From Thermoplasmata archaeon (lineage in GTDB: Archaea; Thermoplasmatota; Thermoplasmata; RBG-16-68-12; JAFNFQ01), in contig JBGPQV010000001.1 of NCBI GenBank assembly GCA_041489255.1, positions 110,606-174,605 of the forward strand: a DNA stretch of 64,000 nt, written 5' to 3'. Positions 8,092 to 45,140 of this stretch are shown here, one piece after another. The position numbers were made by a program, and so were the translations under genes. How positions within the stretch are numbered: the first letter of the stretch is position 1; each line of letters begins with the position of its first letter. The notes under the pieces were generated by a model that searched no databases, was not told the DNA's origin, and saw only the letters and a list, made by a program, of their open reading frames with translations.

Positions 8092-8838
8092 ATGAACGCA
8101 GATGATTCGCCCTCCCCGCCAATGAGGTTCTACAGGACCTACGTGCAGGGATTCGACGAGGCTTTGGGCGGCGGCATCCCCAAGGGGCACGTCATACTCG
8201 TCTCGGGGCCGCCGGGCACGATGAAGTCCTCGCTCGCCTACAGCATCCTCTACCAGAACGCGATCAGGGAGGACGTCAAGGGCGCCTACCTCACCCTCGA
8301 GCAGGGCAAGTCCAGCCTCGAGTTTCAGCTGAGCCGAATGGGGATGGACATGGAGAGGGTCGAGGACCGGGTTCAGATACAAGACCTCTCCCGCATAAGG
8401 CTGGGCATGGAGGAGCTGCGCGGCAAGGCCCGATTCGGGACTCCGGCTGAGAGGCCGTGGCTCGACGTGCTGAAGAGACACATCGAGGATGTGAAGGAAG
8501 GTCACCCTTTCGAGCTGCTGGCCCTTGATTCGCTCCCTGTGCTCGAAATCATCTCGGGCTTAAGGGAGAGACGCATCAACCTGTTCCAGTTCTTCGGCTG
8601 GCTGAAGGGATTGGGGTGCACGAGCTTCGTCATTTCCGAGGTCTCGCCGGATCCGAACACCGTGCACGACGAGGATTTCCTCGCGGACGGTCTGCTCTAC
8701 CTGACGATGGAGAAGGTCGGAGGGCTCGACGTCTACCGCCGCATGAGGTGCGTGAAGATGCGCGGGGTGAACCACAGTACGGGCATCTACACGCTCGAGT
8801 TCAAGGAAGGCGGCTTCAAGGTCAGCCAGGTCATCTGA
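8092..8838 (+). CDS. KaiC-like RecA-superfamily ATPase (single domain)
   Basis: Walker A GPPGTMKSS, Walker B LLALDSL, overall KaiC/RadA-like topology, 248 aa. Confidence 0.8.
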   Translation: MNADDSPSPPMRFYRTYVQGFDEALGGGIPKGHVILVSGPPGTMKSSLAYSILYQNAIREDVKGAYLTLEQGKSSLEFQLSRMGMDMERVEDRVQIQDLSRIRLGMEELRGKARFGTPAERPWLDVLKRHIEDVKEGHPFELLALDSLPVLEIISGLRERRINLFQFFGWLKGLGCTSFVISEVSPDPNTVHDEDFLADGLLYLTMEKVGGLDVYRRMRCVKMRGVNHSTGIYTLEFKEGGFKVSQVI

Positions 8839-10123
8839 CGTCAGACTCGTGGACTGCCTTCAGGTACCGCATGAGTGCGCGTTCCTCCGCCGTGAGTCCC
8901 TCTCCACTGATTTCCTCGTCCGCATATTCCGACAGCAACTTGATCTCCAGCGGGTTTCCTCTTGCGAGCCTGTATGCCTTGCTGAACTCCTGCTCGTCCA
9001 GTTGAGGCGCGATCCTGCGGCACGAGTCCCTGTCGAGACCGCGTAGCTGCAGCTCCTCGAGGAGCTGTTGACCCTTCATGCCCCGGCCCCAGTGCGGCAT
9101 CGTCCTGGCGGTGACCAATATCTGGTTTCCCGTGGCTGCCGCCGCCTCGATCAGGGCATGGGCCACATCCCCGACGTCCTCCAGTTCGCCGAGCAGGTCA
9201 TCGATCGCGAACAGGGCCCCGAGGTCGATCAGGGATGCTTCGAGCTTCTTCCCCAGTTCCTCGATCCCGTCATGCTCTTCGATTGTGAACTCGACCTTCC
9301 CCAGTTCGCGCAGGAAATCGGACAGGGCTCCGGCAAGCCTGTCCGCCGTCGTGGCAGGCTTGATGGAGAACCAGAAAACCGGCCTCCTGCCCTCGAGGGA
9401 GGCGACCGCTTGAAGCGCCAGGACCGTCTTCCCGATCCCTCTGGTCCCGGTGATGACCATGACCGGCGGTTTCTTCAGCTGCAGCCACGAGCGGACCTTC
9501 TTGAGTTCGTCGGCCCTGCCGTGGAACGGGGCCTCGGCGGGCGCTCCAATGATGTGGCTTACAGCCTCGACCTCCTTCTTCTTCGCCTTGGCTTTGAAGA
9601 CGTCGAGGACGTTGCGTTCGTCCAGCGCCGCCAGCATCGCCGTGTATGTCCTTGGCGGCAGGAGAAGCTTCCTTGCCTCGCCTGCGGGTAGCTCCCGCAA
9701 CCTCTGGCGGGAATCGCGAACCGAAACGAGAGTCTCGCCGATCCTGCCGTAGATGTTGTTCGCAACCGCCATCCCCTCCGCGGTGATGAGGTAGATCTTC
9801 TTGCGCCTGATTTCCCCCTTCACCCTCGCGGTGGCTTCCCTGATGAAGCCCTGCTTCTGAAGCGTCTTCGCCGCCCTGGAGACGTGGTTGACGAGGATGC
9901 CGAGGGCGTTCGCGATTCCGTCCTGCGTCATCGGCGCGGGGATGTCGATCGTGTGGCTGGCGGAACCGCTCTCCTTGAGGTGTAGGAGTATCCTCTCGTT
10001 CACCGTGAAGAGGCGCTTGTCAAGGCGAGATTCATCCCTGGCCATCTTGCTCAGGCTGTCGATGCGGCGTGCCGAATAAAAAGCTATCGCGCTAACTGCG
10101 CGTGCCGCGAATCTCTGGCTCAA
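8831..10123 (-). CDS. winged-helix DNA-binding domain fused to archaeal-type AAA ATPase
   Basis: N-terminal wHTH (GIANALGILVNHVSRAAKTLQKQGFI), Walker A GTRGIGKT, Walker B LFAIDDL. Arch_ATPase-like. Its start overlaps the stop of the upstream PKD gene by 4 nt. Confidence 0.65.
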   Translation of the reverse strand: MSQRFAARAVSAIAFYSARRIDSLSKMARDESRLDKRLFTVNERILLHLKESGSASHTIDIPAPMTQDGIANALGILVNHVSRAAKTLQKQGFIREATARVKGEIRRKKIYLITAEGMAVANNIYGRIGETLVSVRDSRQRLRELPAGEARKLLLPPRTYTAMLAALDERNVLDVFKAKAKKKEVEAVSHIIGAPAEAPFHGRADELKKVRSWLQLKKPPVMVITGTRGIGKTVLALQAVASLEGRRPVFWFSIKPATTADRLAGALSDFLRELGKVEFTIEEHDGIEELGKKLEASLIDLGALFAIDDLLGELEDVGDVAHALIEAAAATGNQILVTARTMPHWGRGMKGQQLLEELQLRGLDRDSCRRIAPQLDEQEFSKAYRLARGNPLEIKLLSEYADEEISGEGLTAEERALMRYLKAVHESDVR

Positions 10124-39814: not shown

Positions 39815-39878
39815 GCTGACGCTATCCGAGATGGCGGTAATAAGTGTTTGCGGTCTCGATGGCGGTCAGCGATCGCCC

Positions 39879-40466
39879 TCAGATTTTCCCAACGAGGTCC
39901 CAGCGAGGTTTCAGCGTCTTCTTGCCCGGCTCCCAGCTCGCGGGGCAGGCTTCTCTCTTGGTCTCCCTGACGTACTTCGCCGCCCGCAACTTTCTGAGCA
40001 GCTCCTTGACGCTCCTACCTATGTTGTTGTCGTGGATCTCAAATGCCTTGACGATCCCGTCTGGATCGATGACGAAGGTGCCCCTGTAGGCCACGCCTTC
40101 ATCGCTTTTATAGACGCTAAATTCCCTAGCGAGGCTGCCCGTCGGGTCGGCGATCATGGGGAACCTGACCTTGTTCACGGTCTTCGAGGTGTCATGCCAT
40201 GCTTTGTGCGAGTGGACTGAGTCGGTGCTGGCGCTCAACACCTCGACGCCGAGTCTCTTGAACTGGTCATAGTTGTCGGCGAGTTCGCCGAGCTCCGTCG
40301 GGCAGACGAACGTGAAATCCCCGGGGTAGAACATGAGCACGACCCACTTCCCTTTGTAATCTGACAGATTGATTTTCTTGATTCCACCCTGGTGGTAAGC
40401 CCGCACCTCCAGGTCAGGGACCTTCTCGTTTATTGACACCATTTCGATTACGCCTTCCCGGTTCAA
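39879..40466 (-). CDS. peroxiredoxin (thioredoxin-dependent peroxidase)
   Basis: Peroxidatic FTFVCPTE motif, 195 aa. TTG start at 40466 or ATG at 40442. Confidence 0.85.
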   Translation of the reverse strand: MNREGVIEMVSINEKVPDLEVRAYHQGGIKKINLSDYKGKWVVLMFYPGDFTFVCPTELGELADNYDQFKRLGVEVLSASTDSVHSHKAWHDTSKTVNKVRFPMIADPTGSLAREFSVYKSDEGVAYRGTFVIDPDGIVKAFEIHDNNIGRSVKELLRKLRAAKYVRETKREACPASWEPGKKTLKPRWDLVGKI

Positions 40467-40589
40467 TAGGCGGTAGCGGTTAATGAGTTTTTAGGATTCC
40501 CGAGATGGTTGGCGTGGGTACCGCCACGGGAATAGGATTGATACTAAGCCACCGCAACCCTTTAACGATTGAGCACCATGGTGCCCGCC

Positions 40590-40664
40590 GGACCCGTGGC
40601 CTAGACAGGATATGGCACCGGCTTTCTAAGCCGGCGATCCCGGGTTCGAATCCCGGCGGGTCCG
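40590..40664 (+). tRNA. tRNA-Arg(TCT), copy 1, full length
   Basis: Acceptor GGACCCG/CGGGTCC; anticodon stem CCGGC/GCCGG; loop TTTCTAA; T-arm CCGGG-TTCGAAT-CCCGG; discriminator G. Confidence 0.8.
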
Positions 40665-40708
40665 TCTCAGACCGTATCGACCGCCCTGTTGGCTCTCGGA
40701 TAATCAGA

Positions 40709-41146
40709 CTATTGAGAACGATTATGCTTCGTTGGTCTCGGCGGAGTCTTGCCGCGCAGGGTGCAGATGCTGAACTCGGCGTCCAAGGCAACTCTCCCAC
40801 TCAGCTTCTTGACCTCTTCGAGGGCGGCGAGGGCACGTTGTTCGTCGAACGGATATACATCATTGGCTGCCCACACCCTCACATATGGATTGTCGTGGTC
40901 TAGGAGCGAGTTCAAGGCTTGCTTGCCCTCATCTCCAGCTCTCTTCAGTCCGCGTGCCGCCGCAATGACGCGCCTAGCGTATCGATTCACCGTCAGTGGA
41001 TGTGAGTGAGCGTCACACGCGGCTCCGTACTTGATTGCGGCATCGACATAACGAGCCTTCAGTCGGGCGACGGCCCGAGATTCGTCTTGAATGCTCATGG
41101 CCGCCACTCGCCCCCTGAGATCATCTCGAGTACCTGCCAACCTCAA
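40709..41146 (-). CDS. small HEAT-like repeat protein, paralog A
   Basis: 145 aa. LL.H.NP.VR..AA HEAT-type motif. ~35% identical to paralog B. Confidence 0.5.
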   Translation of the reverse strand: MRLAGTRDDLRGRVAAMSIQDESRAVARLKARYVDAAIKYGAACDAHSHPLTVNRYARRVIAAARGLKRAGDEGKQALNSLLDHDNPYVRVWAANDVYPFDEQRALAALEEVKKLSGRVALDAEFSICTLRGKTPPRPTKHNRSQ

Positions 41147-41184
41147 CCCGAGTACCCATCATAAGATTTCCCGATGGTTTACGC

Positions 41185-41249
41185 CCTAGACAGGATATGG
41201 CACCGGCTTTCTAAGCCGGCGATCCCGGGTTCGAATCCCGGCGGGTCCG
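41185..41249 (+). pseudogene. 5'-truncated copy of tRNA-Arg(TCT) (positions ~12-73)
   Basis: 100% identical to copies 1 and 3 from CCTAGACAGG through the 3' end plus TCTCAG. Lacks the 5' acceptor strand. Confidence 0.7.
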
Positions 41250-41424
41250 TCTCAGTCCATATAAACCGGCGTCATTCGAGCGGGATTGAGCGAACACGAC
41301 TGATGCGCTTCCAGCCTCTGACCCTGAAAAATCCCCTTCCCCACTTCCAAGGGAGCAGCCCTCGATACTTCGCCTTCAGGCGAGAAGGATTCGACGTGGA
41401 CTGGGGTCTCTTTGATCCCCACTC

Positions 41425-41805
41425 TCAGGGGTGGAGCCGCCCCGCCCGCCACTCCCGCAAGACCATCTTTGCATTGAAGCCAACAATGCTTTTCTCCCTC
41501 GTCAAGGCCTCAATCATTTTCGTTGCTTCCGCTTCGTGATACTTCAGGTATATGCTCGCTGCGACCAAACGTACCCAAGGATTCGAATGCTCTAGTAGCG
41601 CATGAATCGCGTGCCGTCCGGCTTCTCCTTTCTTCTCCAAGCGCTTCCTGAGACTATCATAACGCTTGTACTGCTTGTTCGTCGTCTTGTAGTCGGCCGC
41701 ATCGGCCGCAGCTCCATGCTTGGTGACTGCGTCCACGAACTCTTCGACCAAACTCGAGATGGATTCCGGATTGCGCAGAATGCGACTCTTCACCCGCGGC
41801 GGCAT
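41425..41805 (-). CDS. small HEAT-like repeat protein, paralog B
   Basis: 126 aa. Homologous to 40709..41146 (FVDAV.KHGAA.DA...LLEHSNPWVRLVAAS). Confidence 0.5.
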   Translation of the reverse strand: MPPRVKSRILRNPESISSLVEEFVDAVTKHGAAADAADYKTTNKQYKRYDSLRKRLEKKGEAGRHAIHALLEHSNPWVRLVAASIYLKYHEAEATKMIEALTREKSIVGFNAKMVLREWRAGRLHP

Positions 41806-41900
41806 TGGCGTTGGCGGGATATTAAGGTTGTATGGAACCGGGGGGAAAAGAAACTCCCGCCACCGCCACGGTTCGACGAGTGAATACCATAACGCCCCCC

Positions 41901-41975
41901 GGACCCGTGGCCTAGACAGGATATGGCACCGGCTTTCTAAGCCGGCGATCCCGGGTTCGAATCCCGGCGGGTCCG
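41901..41975 (+). tRNA. tRNA-Arg(TCT), copy 3, full length, identical to copy 1
   Basis: Same 75-nt sequence as 40590..40664. Confidence 0.8.
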
Positions 41976-42134
41976 TCTATTCCCGAAGAAGGATAAAACT
42001 AATCAACCGTTTAGGCCAAAGTGGTCGTTCGACCTCTTTTCCTTTGGTTCCTGTCCCCCCAAGCTCCTGCCTGGAAACGGGCGGGGACACCTTTCCTCTT
42101 TTATACATTGGATTTATTGCCGCAATCGATTCAT

Positions 42135-42392
42135 ATGCCGAAGAAAGACTATCAGGGATATTTGTCTGTGATTGGGGAGGTGCTCAAACAGGATGCACTG
42201 GTGTTGAAGGCTGAAGTTGCGGGGAAGAAATCTTACGATGAGGGAACACTCACCGGCTATGCTCTCGCTCTCGACACCATGTTAGATTATCTTGAAATGT
42301 TCAACCTGAAACCTAAGGATTTAGGTTGGAAAGACTTCATTCCGGAGCGTGATTTATTGAGTGGCCGCAAGCCCATGAAAAGAAAGAAATGA
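42135..42392 (+). CDS. small hypothetical protein in lower-GC DNA
   Basis: 85 aa from internal ATG (MPKKDYQGYLSVIGEV...). By eye this stretch is noticeably AT-richer than the window. Confidence 0.4.
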   Translation: MPKKDYQGYLSVIGEVLKQDALVLKAEVAGKKSYDEGTLTGYALALDTMLDYLEMFNLKPKDLGWKDFIPERDLLSGRKPMKRKK

Positions 42393-42934
42393 GAAGTTAA
42401 GTCACGTTTCATGTTTCAGGGCAAGGGAACGATACGGAATCCGAATTGCAAGTAGGGAGTAGGGACTCGCTCTCCCGCACTCGGATCGAGGGCGGGGACA
42501 CCATTGCGTCTCACCTCCCTTGACCGCGCCTGGCTTCCCCGAACCCAAGCTGTGATCGCAAGCGCTCGGACGATTATGTTCACGCAGCCCTGTCACGTCC
42601 TCTACGTCGCCGGCATGCCATCGGCGACGCGCTCACTCGATGATTCGGGCCTCCACGGGGAACGATCCTTTTCCGCGTCTTTCCAACACGGGAAATGCCT
42701 CGCTTTTTCGGAAGGTCCACCTCGTTCTCTCCTCGTTCACACCTCGCTCTCACCTGATATAGAGGCTTTACACTCGCCTTTCGAGGCTTTCTGATCCTCG
42801 GCATACACGCGGGCATGGCGGCGATCAGCCCTCAAAAACCGCCAAGAACGCTGATTCTCCGCGAATCAATTAAGAGGAGGATGCGCGCATGACTTTGCGC
42901 CGTTTCACCTCGGCGGGAATCGGGGGAGAGGATC

Positions 42935-43522
42935 ATGGCGAAGATAACGAACATATTCGGTACCAAGTTCCGCGGTCGGATAGGCAAGGACATGGTCGCG
43001 ACGTCGTGGAAGGGGCACGAGTACCTGCGCACGTACGTCGTCCCGCACGACCCGAAGACGGAGGACCAGCTGGCGCAGAGGGGCCTGCTCGGGAAGGCGG
43101 TGGAGGCATGGCGGGAGCTGTCGAAACCGCAGACCAGGTTCTTCAACGCCCTGGCGCACGGGATGTCCGGGTACAACCTCTTCATCCGCAGGCACATCAG
43201 GGCGGCTGTCGACGGGCGGGAGCTGGAGCTCCCCGCCGTGATGAGGTGGCGGACGGAGGGCGGGCAGCGCATGAAGGACGCGAGGCTGGTGGTCGCGCAC
43301 GACGGACGTCACGTCTTCAACGACGACCTCGGGGACGGCGTGATCGAGATCGCGCTCACGAGGTCGGACGCGCCGTACAGCTTCGAGCTCAGGAAGGGAC
43401 ACCAGGAGGAGGTCGTGAAAGTATTCGAGAACGAACTGCAGGTTGACTTGCTGGCGGTCCTGGAGAGCGAGGCATTGGGCATCAAGCTCGTCCCGGACAC
43501 GCCGGATCCGAAAGCACCATGA
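42935..43522 (+). CDS. hypothetical protein
   Basis: 195 aa. ATG preceded by GGGGGAGAGGATC SD-like sequence. No family recognised. Confidence 0.5.
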   Translation: MAKITNIFGTKFRGRIGKDMVATSWKGHEYLRTYVVPHDPKTEDQLAQRGLLGKAVEAWRELSKPQTRFFNALAHGMSGYNLFIRRHIRAAVDGRELELPAVMRWRTEGGQRMKDARLVVAHDGRHVFNDDLGDGVIEIALTRSDAPYSFELRKGHQEEVVKVFENELQVDLLAVLESEALGIKLVPDTPDPKAP

Positions 43523-43639
43523 CGTGCAAGAGCTGGCGGGTCACACCGTCTGAGGTCGCTTCCCCCGCGCACTCTGAGAATGGATATCAGGAATCCCGCA
43601 ACGAGGATGATCATTTCCATCGGCAATATCCGGGGTTCT

Positions 43640-43953
43640 GTTGAGCCAGGGCGAGCCTGACCGCTCCGTTGAATCTTCTCCAAGGAGTTCCTCACCCGGG
43701 TCACCGCCACGTAGACTATCGCCTTCGTGACCGGATCTATGGCCACCCAGACGTAGCAGTCCCGCCTGCCCTCCATGAGGGGCGCCTCGTCCACGACTAC
43801 GATATCGGGCAGCCCCCCTTGGTGGAACATGCCCGCCATGGCCGTCCCGAACTTCTGTATCCAGCCCCAGACAGCCAGGTGGCTTCTCCTGCGCACAACA
43901 CCTTTTTCTTTCAGGAGACCTATCAGACCTTCGGTCCCACTCGCTTCTGGCAT
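43640..43953 (-). pseudogene. IS6-like DDE transposase N-terminal fragment
   Basis: W.QKFG ... DIVVVDEAPLMEGRRDCYVWVAIDPVTKAIVYVAVTRVRNS matches the IS6-family first catalytic D and AID-box region. The frame degenerates after ~105 aa. Confidence 0.45.
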
Positions 43954-44019
43954 GTTTGATTACAAAACTGCATCAGGAGTGAAGGGACTTCCTTTTCGCT
44001 AACTTGACAGAACCGGAGG

Positions 44020-44952
44020 ATGGGCGGCACAAGTATCTTATGGCGGCGTTGCCAATGCTTCATCATGTGGGGTCATGGCGTTCGTGAGGGCCCGTCTTCT
44101 GCGTTTGTGTTGTCCGCGCTGATCGCCGCGGCATTGATCATCTGCGCATTTCCGGATTCTACGGCGGCGTCAGGGGACAAGCCGTCGTGGAGCGTTGGGG
44201 ACTATTGGGAATACGATGGTTGGAACTACCCCTACGTCTTCAAGCAAAGGGTTGAGGTCAAGGGCGAGGAGACGTTAATCCAGAACGGGAGGAGCTATTC
44301 CGCCTTCAAGCTCTTCTTTAACAGTACCCTATCCCTCGGACCCGAAGTTGAGACGTATACATACTCCCATTGGTACCAATCATCCGACTTATCCCTCCTC
44401 AGGTTAGAATCCAACATGAGCGCCATAAACGCCACCGCCACAGTGACTTACGACCCGCCATTGCCCGTATTCCAATTTCCTATGGAGGTCGGCGAGACGT
44501 GGACATCGTCAAGCAACATCGTCATGAACAAGACTTGCACGAATTGCACCCTTATCGTACCAACGAACCTCAACAGGGAAATCACTTCAATCGTCGACCT
44601 CACCCTGACCTTGAATATGAGTGGACAAGGACAGACGCGCACATTCAGAACCTACGTGCTTAAGGAGTCATGGACGACGCCCGGCCACTATCTCTCTTAT
44701 TACTCGGATGACGCCGGTTTCTGGGTCAAGCGCGAAGCATTCGCTGACAACGGCACAAGGATGATGGAGTATTCCTTGACATCATTCGGCTATGCGCTAG
44801 CGCCCGCCCCGCCAAATACGATAATCATGGTAATCATCATCGTCATCGTGGCCTGTGCGATTACCGTATTCATCATCCTGATTCGGCTGCGAAGAAGGTC
44901 AGCTGCGAGCCTGCCTCGGTCCGAGGACGAGACTGAGCCGCCACTCCCCTAG
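44020..44952 (+). CDS. membrane-anchored extracellular protein with multiple N-glycosylation sequons
   Basis: Signal-like N-terminus. Eight or more N-X-S/T sequons. C-terminal TM IIMVIIIVIVACAITVFIIL plus RLRRR. Lower GC than the window average. Confidence 0.55.
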   Translation: MGGTSILWRRCQCFIMWGHGVREGPSSAFVLSALIAAALIICAFPDSTAASGDKPSWSVGDYWEYDGWNYPYVFKQRVEVKGEETLIQNGRSYSAFKLFFNSTLSLGPEVETYTYSHWYQSSDLSLLRLESNMSAINATATVTYDPPLPVFQFPMEVGETWTSSSNIVMNKTCTNCTLIVPTNLNREITSIVDLTLTLNMSGQGQTRTFRTYVLKESWTTPGHYLSYYSDDAGFWVKREAFADNGTRMMEYSLTSFGYALAPAPPNTIIMVIIIVIVACAITVFIILIRLRRRSAASLPRSEDETEPPLP

Positions 44953-45140
44953 TAAAAATCCCGTAATCCCAAAGCAAGAATGAAAGAGGGAGGATACCGC
45001 CATAATCGCATGTTCGAACGTGAGTATCCTTCCTCTACACCATTTGCTCCATTCATCTTGAAGCATGACGGAATCGACCGCCGTGAGACAGTAATGATTT
45101 TCACTAGGCCGCGCATTCGCCCCTCGGCGAGGGCACATAG

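What the first reader, a model, noticed from the sequence alone, without database searches (positions are those of the whole stretch)
40590..41975. Triplicated tRNA-Arg(TCT): two identical full copies and one 5'-truncated copy in tandem
Copies at 40590 and 41901 are identical over 75 nt. The middle copy (41185-41249) is identical from position ~12 to the 3' end and lacks the acceptor 5' strand. Copy 2 can be derived from copy 3 plus its upstream flank (AACGCCC|CCCGGACCCGTGGCC|TAGACAGG) by a 15-nt deletion. Copies 1 and 2 share 6 extra nt downstream (TCTCAG), while copy 3 diverges. This is the footprint expected from repeated site-specific integration into, or tandem duplication of, a tRNA att site. 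Each spacer carries one cargo gene on the opposite strand.
Basis: seen in the sequence. Interest (0 to 1): 0.6.

Follow-up and report, generated by a model that had tools for sequence, protein, structure and literature searches.

The report
tRNA-Arg repeats framing orphan toxin-immunity genes
An archaeal tRNA-Arg gene is present as two full copies and one partial copy because single-gene cassettes have been inserted at it, each carrying an "orphan" immunity gene taken from an Rhs toxin locus, so this is a small strain-variable antitoxin stockpile.

Summary
Two identical tRNA-Arg(TCT) genes (40590-40664, 41901-41975) flank a 5'-truncated copy (41185-41249), in two independent assemblies.

The two spacer genes are DUF2019/HEAT-like paralogs, only 30% identical to each other. 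Each has much closer relatives (81% and 66%) that sit directly downstream of RHS-repeat polymorphic toxin genes in related archaea. A 30-aa remnant of a toxin C-terminus survives upstream of gene a. The spacers are therefore independently acquired orphan immunity cassettes, not in-situ duplicates.

Related populations show:
- a single tRNA-Arg with an empty site;
- the same tRNA followed by a tyrosine integrase, and the four homologs of that integrase whose loci I examined also abut tRNA-Arg(TCT);
- the same two cassettes in the opposite order.

Best reading: a small archaeal polyimmunity locus, built by Campbell-type recombination of tRNA-bearing cassettes into resident tRNA-Arg copies. The catalyst is either an integrase acting in trans or homologous recombination; sequence alone cannot decide. 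No integrase lies in the window.

This is a new variant of known kinds (tRNA att islands, polyimmunity/AID loci). Interest is moderate to high.

The parts
40548..40589 (+). Native-type promoter module of tRNA-Arg copy 1, with a TATA-like TTTAA at 40561-40565, centred about 27 nt upstream of the tRNA
   Evidence: This flank (ccaccgcaaccctttaacgat...) is conserved upstream of the single tRNA-Arg in L001-L006 and L008. The role as an archaeal TATA box is inferred from position.
40590..40664 (+). tRNA-Arg(TCT) copy 1, full length; probably the expressed copy
   Evidence: ARAGORN and Rfam at 64.6 bits. It is 100% identical to the tRNA in all related loci.
40665..40676 (+). Cassette-proximal motif TCTCAGACCGTA, directly after the tRNA 3' end
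   Evidence: Shared as TCTCAG + (A/T)(C/T)C(G/A)(T/G)A by cassettes a, b and b2 in the window, L005/L013 and L007. Empty sites have CTT here instead.
40709..41098 (-). Orphan immunity gene a (DUF2019/HEAT-like, 129 aa from the ATG at 41098; the ORF is open up to 41146)
   Evidence: Pfam HEAT_2 and DUF2019 matches, both below the gathering cut-offs. 66% identical to P0117, which overlaps by 4 nt the stop of an RHS-repeat ORF in L019.
41098..41187 (-). Remnant of the last ~30 codons of an Rhs toxin C-terminal domain, including the ATGA stop/start overlap with gene a
   Evidence: tblastn with the L019 Rhs C-terminus gives 50% identity over 30 aa.
41185..41249 (+). Partial tRNA-Arg copy 2 (tRNA positions 11-75; G at 41183 also matches position 9). 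It lacks the 5' acceptor strand
   Evidence: The same junction is conserved in L007, where positions 9-75 are intact.
41250..41261 (+). Cassette-proximal motif TCTCAGTCCATA of cassette b
   Evidence: The following ~60 nt are shared with the b flanks in L013 and L007, but not with the Rhs locus L011.
41425..41805 (-). Orphan immunity gene b (DUF2019, 126 aa)
   Evidence: Pfam DUF2019, E = 3e-10. The AlphaFold model (pLDDT 88) matches PDB 2I9C with TM about 0.8. 81% aa and 84.6% nt identity, including 92 nt of 3' UTR, to the gene overlapping the stop of a 3313-aa RHS/YD protein in L011/L012. A third pairing is in L024.
41859..41900 (+). Diverged copy of the tRNA promoter module upstream of copy 3. 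The TATA-like box is changed from TTTAA to TTCGA
   Evidence: the repeat finder family D1; 30 of 45 nt identical to the copy-1 flank. The same flank precedes tRNA_B in L005/L013/L014/L016. Loss of promoter function is inferred.
41901..41975 (+). tRNA-Arg(TCT) copy 3, full length
41976..45140 (.). Rest of the variable region between the tRNA array and the deoxyhypusine synthase gene: 85/123-aa, 195-aa and 310-aa ORFs of unknown family, and a low-GC patch
   Evidence: Absent or different in L001, L002, L008 and L004, and partly shared with L003 and L007. No Pfam, PHROG or PADLOC hits. GC profile.

Best explanation
The locus is a small archaeal polyimmunity array anchored on tRNA-Arg(TCT).

Each spacer is a minimal cassette cut out of an Rhs polymorphic-toxin locus. 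It holds the tail of the toxin gene (for cassette a), the cognate DUF2019 immunity gene and a short 3' UTR. Each cassette is joined to its own copy of the tRNA: positions 9-75 for cassette a, and the whole gene plus about 42 nt of promoter for cassette b. Each begins with the same TCTCAG-N6 motif right after the tRNA 3' end.

A circular or transferred unit of this kind recombines, Campbell-style, within the tRNA sequence of any resident copy. That adds one cassette and one more tRNA copy. It reproduces both the window order (tRNA-a-psi-b-tRNA) and the opposite order in a sister strain (tRNA-b-tRNA-a).

I consider it most likely that the crossover is made by a tRNA-Arg(TCT)-specific tyrosine integrase supplied in trans. 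That family sits at this very tRNA in related populations. The payoff is protection against Rhs toxins fired by neighbouring strains.

Shown: the anatomy, the independent Rhs origin of the cargo, empty sites, an integrase at the same tRNA elsewhere, and strain-to-strain reordering.

Inferred: circular intermediates, the catalyst, the immunity function, and which tRNA copy is expressed.
For: - Repeats and cargo.
- Cargo origin: b-type genes directly follow RHS-repeat toxins in L011/L012 and L024, and an a-type gene does so in L019.
- The two Rhs proteins are 85% identical except in their last ~100 aa.
- A toxin-tail remnant lies upstream of a in the window, and a 108-aa remnant (75% identity, E = 8e-49) lies upstream of b2 in L007.
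- Gene b is 81% identical to the Rhs-linked gene but 30% identical to a.
- Empty sites: L001, L002, L008.
- An integrase immediately follows the same tRNA in L004, whose 70-nt upstream flank is identical to that of the empty-site contigs.
- Integrase family evidence: PHROG integrase hit at 6e-5; homologs named site-specific integrase, some carrying PF00589; conserved R...K...RPYxLR...Y positions.
- Four homologs at 53-55% identity all lie about 50 nt downstream of a tRNA-Arg(TCT).
- All island-type tRNA copies are followed by TCT, as in L004, whereas empty sites have CTT.
- The opposite cassette order appears on four contigs, including k141 assemblies that span the ~82-nt repeat.
- The tRNA copy carried by cassette b has the promoter flank of the Prx-linked type even in a strain whose native tRNA has a different flank. 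This implies the cassette travels with its own tRNA copy.
- A published review reports that tRNA-Arg(TCT) is among the most used archaeal att sites, and that archaeal attB sites can extend over the D-loop and beyond the gene (PMC8371274).
Against: - No integrase of this family, or any recognisable recombinase, lies in the 64-kb window.
- None of the integrase-bearing loci carries a DUF2019 gene.
- No attR or attP of an integrase-bearing element was recovered, so the true att core is unknown.
- Left repeat boundaries differ between cassettes (+9, -22, -42). A single site-specific mechanism would be expected to give one boundary.
- No free or viral copy of the att sequence or of the integrase was found in IMG/VR.
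- Only two cassettes are present in the window.
- How an Rhs fragment first became fused to tRNA sequence is not explained.
Confidence: 0.45

Rival explanations
1. The architecture and cargo are as above, but there is no site-specific enzyme. Cassettes are gained, lost and reordered purely by homologous recombination between the 68-120-nt identical tRNA repeats (loop-out circles, unequal crossing-over). They also enter by recombination of incoming DNA, using the universally conserved tRNA as a homology anchor.
For: - No recombinase lies in the window.
- Repeat lengths vary and include a whole gene plus promoter, more than an att site needs.
- The tRNA is 100% identical across populations that are only 73-96% identical elsewhere, which makes it an ideal homology anchor.
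- Every observed junction is equally well produced by homologous crossover.
- The review notes module exchange by homologous recombination between mobile elements integrated in tandem (PMC8371274).
Against: - It does not explain why independent cassettes share the same TCTCAG-N6 boundary right after the tRNA, or the switch from CTT to TCT at occupied sites, which is shared with the integrase-bearing L004.
- Efficient recombination between direct repeats should collapse the array.
- A dedicated integrase family demonstrably uses this tRNA in the same lineage.
Confidence: 0.35
2. The repeats are attL/attR scars of two conventional, once large, integrase-encoding elements integrated in tandem. 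Each later lost its integrase and almost all cargo by deletion, leaving one gene apiece.
For: - Copy 1 (full), gene a and copy 2 (3' partial) form the classic attL-element-attR pattern.
- Integrase-bearing elements exist at this tRNA in relatives and carry defence-type cargo, for example HEPN_AbiV in L021.
Against: - It would require at least two independent deletions ending 12 nt after the tRNA.
- The array ends with a full tRNA plus a promoter copy rather than a partial attR.
- The same tiny cassettes recur intact, in a different order, in another strain.
- No integrase pseudogene fragments were found by tblastn.
Confidence: 0.1
3. Simple in-situ tandem duplication of a tRNA-plus-gene unit, followed by divergence of the gene copies. 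The tRNA sequence is kept identical by selection or gene conversion.
For: - The two spacer genes are paralogs of one family.
- The copy-3 upstream flank is a diverged copy of the copy-1 promoter.
Against: - Gene b is 81% identical (84.6% at nucleotide level, including the UTR) to an Rhs-linked gene elsewhere but 30% identical to a. Gene a is 66% identical to another Rhs-linked gene.
- A toxin remnant lies upstream of a.
- The non-functional partial copy is still 100% identical.
- Relatives have a single tRNA.
Confidence: 0.03
4. An assembly artefact: repeat-induced mis-joins create apparent extra tRNA copies.
For: The repeats are short enough to confuse short-read assemblers. One related contig (L007) ends in an odd inverted junction.
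Against: - The arrangement is identical in a 400.9-kb contig and in an independent MAG contig.
- Each adjacency is confirmed on separate contigs from other samples, including k = 141 assemblies that span the repeat.
Confidence: 0.02

Closest known systems
Polyimmunity loci (Zhang et al. 2012, PMC3482391), orphan immunity arrays of Vibrio cholerae T6SS loci (PMC5361080), and AID/rAID-1 clusters of gut Bacteroidales (bioRxiv 10.1101/471110)
   Same: - Tandem genes homologous to cognate immunity genes of polymorphic toxins, held without the toxin.
- Toxin-gene remnants retained.
- Gene content and order vary between close strains.
- Repeated intergenic sequences.
- Recombinases are suspected of building such arrays.
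   Different: - The host is an archaeon. Zhang et al. found extended polyimmunity loci only in some bacterial phyla.
- The repeats between genes are copies of a tRNA gene, not short non-coding motifs.
- No recombinase gene is adjacent.
- Only two genes are present in the window, and up to five in a related strain.
- The immunity family is DUF2019, for which a full-text search found no paper describing an immunity role.
Archaeal tyrosine-integrase elements that integrate into tRNA genes (reviewed in PMC8371274), including tandem integrations
   Same: - Direct repeats of the 3' part of a tRNA flank inserted DNA.
- An intact tRNA is kept at the promoter side.
- tRNA-Arg(TCT) is a favoured target.
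- The att can reach the D-arm and beyond the 3' end.
- Empty sites occur in relatives.
- An integrase of a tRNA-Arg(TCT)-associated family sits at the same site in a sister population.
   Different: - The inserted units are 585 and 726 bp with one gene each and no integrase.
- One unit carries a complete tRNA gene with a promoter copy.
- Repeat boundaries differ between units.
- The cargo is derived from chromosomal Rhs loci of the same lineage. Its GC content is close to the host's.
Integrons (IntI, attI, attC gene cassettes)
   Same: It works like one in outline: single-gene cassettes, each with its own recombination sequence, stacked next to a fixed site and re-orderable between strains.
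   Different: - No IntI-type integrase and no attC hairpins.
- The recombination sequence is a tRNA gene.
- Cassette b appears to carry its own promoter-like TTAATAT box (inference from the sequence).
- Genes are antisense to the tRNA.
Orphan Rhs/CdiA C-terminal-plus-immunity modules downstream of bacterial rhs/cdi loci (own knowledge, not checked in a paper here)
   Same: A truncated toxin C-terminal fragment followed by its immunity gene, with the ATGA stop/start overlap preserved. L007 keeps an a2 - toxin remnant - b2 block that looks like such an orphan array.
   Different: The modules are not downstream of an rhs gene. They are relocated to a tRNA hot spot and bounded by tRNA copies. No RHS-repeat gene lies in the 64-kb window.

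Membership tests
tRNA-targeting integrative element (tyrosine integrase att footprint) | Direct repeats comprising the 3' part of a tRNA gene flank the inserted DNA, with an intact tRNA at one end | tested here: met
   Copy 1 is full and copy 2 covers tRNA positions 11-75 plus TCTCAG, with 71 nt identical.
tRNA-targeting integrative element (tyrosine integrase att footprint) | An integrase gene lies inside or next to the inserted DNA | tested here: not met
   tblastn with the L004 integrase finds nothing in the window. The ORF inventory and Pfam scans show no recombinase. The integrase is present only in related loci L004, L017, L018, L020 and L021.
tRNA-targeting integrative element (tyrosine integrase att footprint) | An unoccupied site with a single tRNA exists in related genomes | tested here: met
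   L001, L002 and L008 have the 115-aa gene, a single tRNA-Arg and then the deoxyhypusine synthase region, without DUF2019 cassettes.
tRNA-targeting integrative element (tyrosine integrase att footprint) | The repeat (att) boundary is the same in independent insertions | tested here: inconclusive
   The 3' boundary is constant (tRNA end plus TCTCAG-N6). The 5' boundary is +9 for a, -22 for a2 and -42 for b. No attR of an integrase-bearing element was recovered.
Polyimmunity / orphan immunity locus | The genes are homologs of immunity genes that elsewhere sit immediately downstream of a polymorphic toxin gene | tested here: met
   b-type genes follow RHS proteins in L011/L012 and L024. An a-type gene follows an RHS ORF in L019. 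All overlap the toxin stop by 4 nt.
Polyimmunity / orphan immunity locus | No intact cognate toxin is adjacent | tested here: met
   Only a 30-codon toxin tail remains upstream of a. The large proteins of the window have PKD/Big domains and no RHS repeats.
Polyimmunity / orphan immunity locus | Gene content and order vary between closely related strains | tested here: met
   The window has a then b. L005, L013, L014 and L016 (92-96% identity) have b then a. L007 adds a2, b2 and c.
Polyimmunity / orphan immunity locus | The encoded proteins neutralise the corresponding toxins | not testable with these tools
   Inferred from conserved toxin-immunity gene pairing only.
rAID-1 (recombinase-associated AID) | A XerD-like tyrosine recombinase gene lies at the 5' end of the array | tested here: not met
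   No recombinase in the window. The rAID criteria are taken from bioRxiv 10.1101/471110.
Integron | An IntI integrase with attI, and cassettes ending in attC hairpin sites | tested here: not met
   There is no IntI, and the repeats between cassettes are tRNA gene copies.
DUF2019 (PF09450) protein family | Sequence match to the Pfam model and the six-helix alpha-repeat fold of PDB 2I9C | tested here: met
   Gene b scores E = 3e-10 at 40.4 bits, above the cut-off of 23.3. Gene a is below the cut-off (18.8 bits) but is homologous to b (E = 2e-16). The model of b matches 2I9C with TM 0.79-0.82.
Tyrosine recombinase (for the L004 ORF) | The catalytic R...K...HxxR...H/W...Y signature and a Phage_integrase-type domain | tested here: inconclusive
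   The L004 protein itself has no Pfam hit. It hits PHROG_1 integrase at 6e-5. Homologs are annotated as integrase and four carry PF00589. The alignment has invariant R162, K210, R297-P-Y-x-L-R302 and Y337. The assignment of these residues to catalytic roles is by position only.

The most novel reading that the evidence does not exclude
A tRNA gene serves as the recombination site of an integron-like cassette system in archaea. Minimal circles, each holding one orphan Rhs-immunity gene and a tRNA-Arg-derived att, are captured, stacked, shuffled and exchanged between strains by a tRNA-Arg(TCT)-specific tyrosine integrase acting in trans. This would give archaea an adaptive, heritable stockpile of antitoxins analogous to bacterial rAID/integron platforms.
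Probability: 0.25. Interest if true: 0.8.

Novelty: new variant of a known kind. Interest (0 to 1): 0.6.

Why it matters
- It would extend polyimmunity (acquired interbacterial defence) loci to Archaea. It also gives genomic evidence that Rhs-type polymorphic toxin warfare shapes natural archaeal populations: toxin-armed and immunity-hoarding genotypes co-occur in one sample.
- It assigns a likely function, immunity to Rhs C-terminal toxins carrying a WHH/FHH motif, to the uncharacterised DUF2019 family.
- It shows a tRNA gene acting as the repeat unit of a gene-cassette array. That offers a simple, testable system: 585-bp and 726-bp units, one candidate integrase family and one tRNA. The system can address whether site-specific integrases or homologous recombination build such arrays.

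Tried and rejected
1. The left flank is homologous to the end of an Rhs gene, and L007 has ACGGCC at the junction.
2. In-situ duplication is rejected on cargo affinities.
3. I looked for a free attP or virus carrying the tRNA 3' part or the integrase in IMG/VR. Three scans found nothing.
4. I looked for an attR repeat in the integrase-bearing loci L017, L018 and L021. None lies within the DNA available, because the contigs end inside the elements.
5. I tested whether the Rhs-linked immunity gene in L011 is followed by a degenerate tRNA remnant. The alignment score was no better than shuffles.
6. I considered tRNA-primed reverse transcription, because the cargo is antisense to the tRNA. I rejected it: there is no CCA between the tRNA end and the cargo, and the next tRNA copy is in the sense orientation (reasoning from the sequence).
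7. Pfam found no named toxin domain in the Rhs C-termini.
8. PADLOC and PHROGs found nothing for the cassette or neighbouring ORFs.
9. The P0116 integrase context was uninformative.
10. A search for a remnant tRNA 3' end before the deoxyhypusine synthase gene found none.
Full report
**Observation.** ARAGORN finds two tRNA-Arg(TCT) genes, which Rfam places at 40590-40664 and 41901-41975 with 64.6 bits each. A third, partial copy lies at 41185-41249. Exact identity runs are as follows:
- copy 1 vs copy 3: 80 nt (40588-40667 = 41899-41978);
- copy 1 vs copy 2: 71 nt (40600-40670 = 41185-41255, i.e. tRNA position 11 to the 3' end plus TCTCAG);
- copy 2 vs copy 3: 68 nt.

The 3'-terminal 23-mer occurs only at these three sites, with zero expected by chance. 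The roughly 42 nt upstream of copy 3 are a diverged copy of the copy-1 upstream region (30 of 45 nt). The window is 100% identical to a 400.9-kb JGI contig and 99.95% identical to an NCBI MAG contig, and both have the same arrangement. The organism is an archaeon. The closest species-level genome is titled 'Methanobacteriota archaeon', and the neighbours include TruD and deoxyhypusine synthase.

**The cargo.** Both spacers carry one minus-strand gene of the DUF2019/HEAT-like family. They are homologous to each other but only 30% identical.

An AlphaFold model of gene b (pLDDT 88) matches the DUF2019 prototype 2I9C with TM about 0.8. Gene b has a relative at 81% aa and 84.6% nt identity, including 92 nt of 3' UTR. 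That relative overlaps by 4 nt the stop codon of a 3313-aa protein with RHS and YD-shell repeats in L011/L012. A more distant b-type gene has the same position after a toxin tail in L024. Gene a has a relative at 66% identity in the same position after an RHS-repeat ORF in L019.

The L012 and L019 Rhs proteins are 85% identical except for their last ~100 residues. Those tails carry EWHHIVEQ and VFHHFVEQ motifs respectively. This is the hallmark of a polymorphic toxin with alternative C-terminal toxin domains and matched immunity genes.

In the window, the 90 nt upstream of gene a (41098-41187) still encode the last ~30 residues of such a toxin tail, including the ATGA stop/start overlap. In L007, a 108-residue toxin tail (75% identity, E = 8e-49) precedes a b-type gene. 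No RHS-repeat protein lies in the window. Genes a and b are therefore orphan immunity genes, acquired separately from two different Rhs modules. They are not products of an in-situ duplication.

**Relatives.** A scan for the tRNA core found one species-level genome and seven metagenome contigs.
- L001, L002 and L008 have a single tRNA-Arg between the conserved 115-aa gene and the deoxyhypusine synthase region. They have no DUF2019 genes, and CTT follows the tRNA.
- L004 has a 70-nt upstream flank identical to L002 and L008, so it comes from the same population. There the tRNA is followed by TCT and, 45 nt later, by a 427-aa ORF.
- That ORF hits the PHROG integrase family (6e-5). It has 110 homologs, several annotated as site-specific integrase and four with PF00589. 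It shares invariant R, K, RPYxLR and Y positions with them.
- The four homologs I inspected (53-55% identity) each lie about 50 nt downstream of a tRNA-Arg(TCT) in other archaeal contigs.
- A review reports that tRNA-Arg(TCT) is among the most frequently used archaeal attachment sites, and that archaeal attB sites can extend over the D-loop and beyond the gene (PMC8371274). The partial copy here starts at the D-stem.

**Strain variation.** Contigs L005(=L015), L013, L014 and L016 are 92-96% identical to the window. Their order is: 115-aa gene, tRNA, b, full tRNA, a. This is the two cassettes in the opposite order and without the peroxiredoxin gene. Two of these are k = 141 assemblies, whose k-mers span the ~82-nt repeat.

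L007 comes from the same sample as L013 and as the Rhs-bearing L019. Reading downstream in tRNA orientation, it carries:
- gene a;
- the same partial tRNA;
- b2, a toxin remnant and a2;
- a full tRNA;
- then a further paralog c and a VapBC pair.

All cassette-proximal tRNA ends read GGGTCCG-TCTCAG plus about 6 similar nt. The other boundary differs between cassettes: tRNA position 9 for a, -22 for a2 and -42 for b. The tRNA copy travelling with b has the promoter flank of the Prx-linked type, even in the strain whose native tRNA has a different flank. This implies that the unit carries its own tRNA copy.

**Mechanism.** Treat each unit as a segment that starts with TCTCAG... and ends with a tRNA copy. 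A single crossover within the tRNA sequence between such a unit and any resident copy then generates exactly the window array (tRNA1-a-psi2-b-tRNA3). It equally generates the sister-strain array (tRNA-b-tRNA-a-psi...). It also explains why copies 1 and 2 share TCTCAG while copy 3 does not. The order of events cannot be inferred, because insertion into the full or the partial copy gives the same product.

Whether the crossover is made by an integrase in trans or by homologous recombination cannot be decided from sequence.
- For the integrase: the dedicated family at this tRNA, the shared 3' boundary, and the CTT-to-TCT change at occupied sites.
- For homologous recombination: no recombinase in the window, no DUF2019 in any integrase-bearing locus, and variable left boundaries.
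- I give 0.45 to the integrase version and 0.35 to recombination-only.
- How Rhs fragments first became fused to tRNA sequence remains unexplained.

**Expression (inference only).** Copy 1 keeps a TTTAA box centred about 27 nt upstream. The copy-3 flank has TTCGA there, so copy 3 may be silent. Gene b has a TTAATAT box about 20 nt upstream of its ATG. Genes a and b are co-oriented and could be co-transcribed.

**Comparison with known systems.** The locus works like a polyimmunity locus (Zhang et al. 2012, PMC3482391) or an AID/rAID-1 cluster (bioRxiv 10.1101/471110), and like V. cholerae orphan immunity arrays (PMC5361080). Shared features are orphan immunity genes, toxin remnants, strain-variable order, repeated spacers and suspected recombinase involvement. 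It differs in four ways: it is archaeal, its repeats are tRNA gene copies, it lacks an adjacent recombinase, and it uses DUF2019, which a full-text search did not link to immunity. It also resembles tandem tRNA-site integrations of archaeal elements, but the units are only 585 and 726 bp and have no integrase. It is not an integron.

**Verdict.** This is a new variant of known kinds, with interest 0.6.

Noticed in passing
window 42050-42105; L007 about 2400-2470 and 470-530: A ~55-nt hairpin-containing motif (TGTCCCCCCAAGCTCC(T/C)GC...GGGCGGG.CAC.TTTCC) lies upstream of the 85/123-aa ORF. In L007, two copies of it flank a 1.9-kb insertion carrying a third DUF2019 paralog and a VapBC (PIN) pair. 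This suggests a second kind of repeat-bounded cassette in the same island.
   Followed up: partly
window 39853-40549: The peroxiredoxin gene between the 115-aa gene and the tRNA is an indel. It is present in the window and in the distant L006, and absent in L001, L002, L003, L005 and L013. Its right boundary coincides with position -42 of the tRNA, the same boundary as the promoter module copied upstream of copy 3.
   Followed up: partly
L001 5802-6938; L002 260-400: L001 has a Ca/cation exchanger gene between the tRNA-Arg and the deoxyhypusine synthase gene. L002 keeps only a ~100-nt remnant of its 3' end, and L008 shares the same flank downstream of the tRNA. The window lacks the gene. The 'empty' sites have therefore themselves been remodelled.
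   Followed up: partly
L007 4379-4795: Gene a is truncated at codon 102. It is joined through an 11-nt microhomology (CCGTTCGACGA) to the b-type flank and an inverted full tRNA at the contig end. This is either a real inversion between short inverted repeats or a chimeric contig end.
   Followed up: no
window 43309-43953 (-): The N-terminal part of this ORF resembles IS6-type DDE transposases by eye, and it overlaps the 3' end of the 195-aa gene. Pfam and PHROGs give no hit, so this is unsupported.
   Followed up: partly
L012 8482-8646: A degenerate second DUF2019-like fragment (42% identity over 55 aa) lies 92 nt downstream of the Rhs-linked immunity gene. That is exactly where nucleotide homology with the window's cassette b ends, so the Rhs locus itself looks modular.
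   Followed up: no
L004 1134-1295 (integrase C-terminus) and P0116: The last 53 aa of the L004 integrase are 92% identical to the tail of an otherwise unrelated 305-aa PF00589 integrase. This points to module exchange between elements.
   Followed up: partly
L021 2102-7656: An element with a homologous integrase at tRNA-Arg(TCT) carries defence-like cargo: an AAA_23/SMC_N ATPase, HEPN_AbiV and HATPase_c_3.
   Followed up: no
window 8831-10123 (-): A STAND/NACHT-like NTPase with an N-terminal HTH lies next to a 1098-aa PKD-repeat surface protein. It is unrelated to the finding.
   Followed up: no
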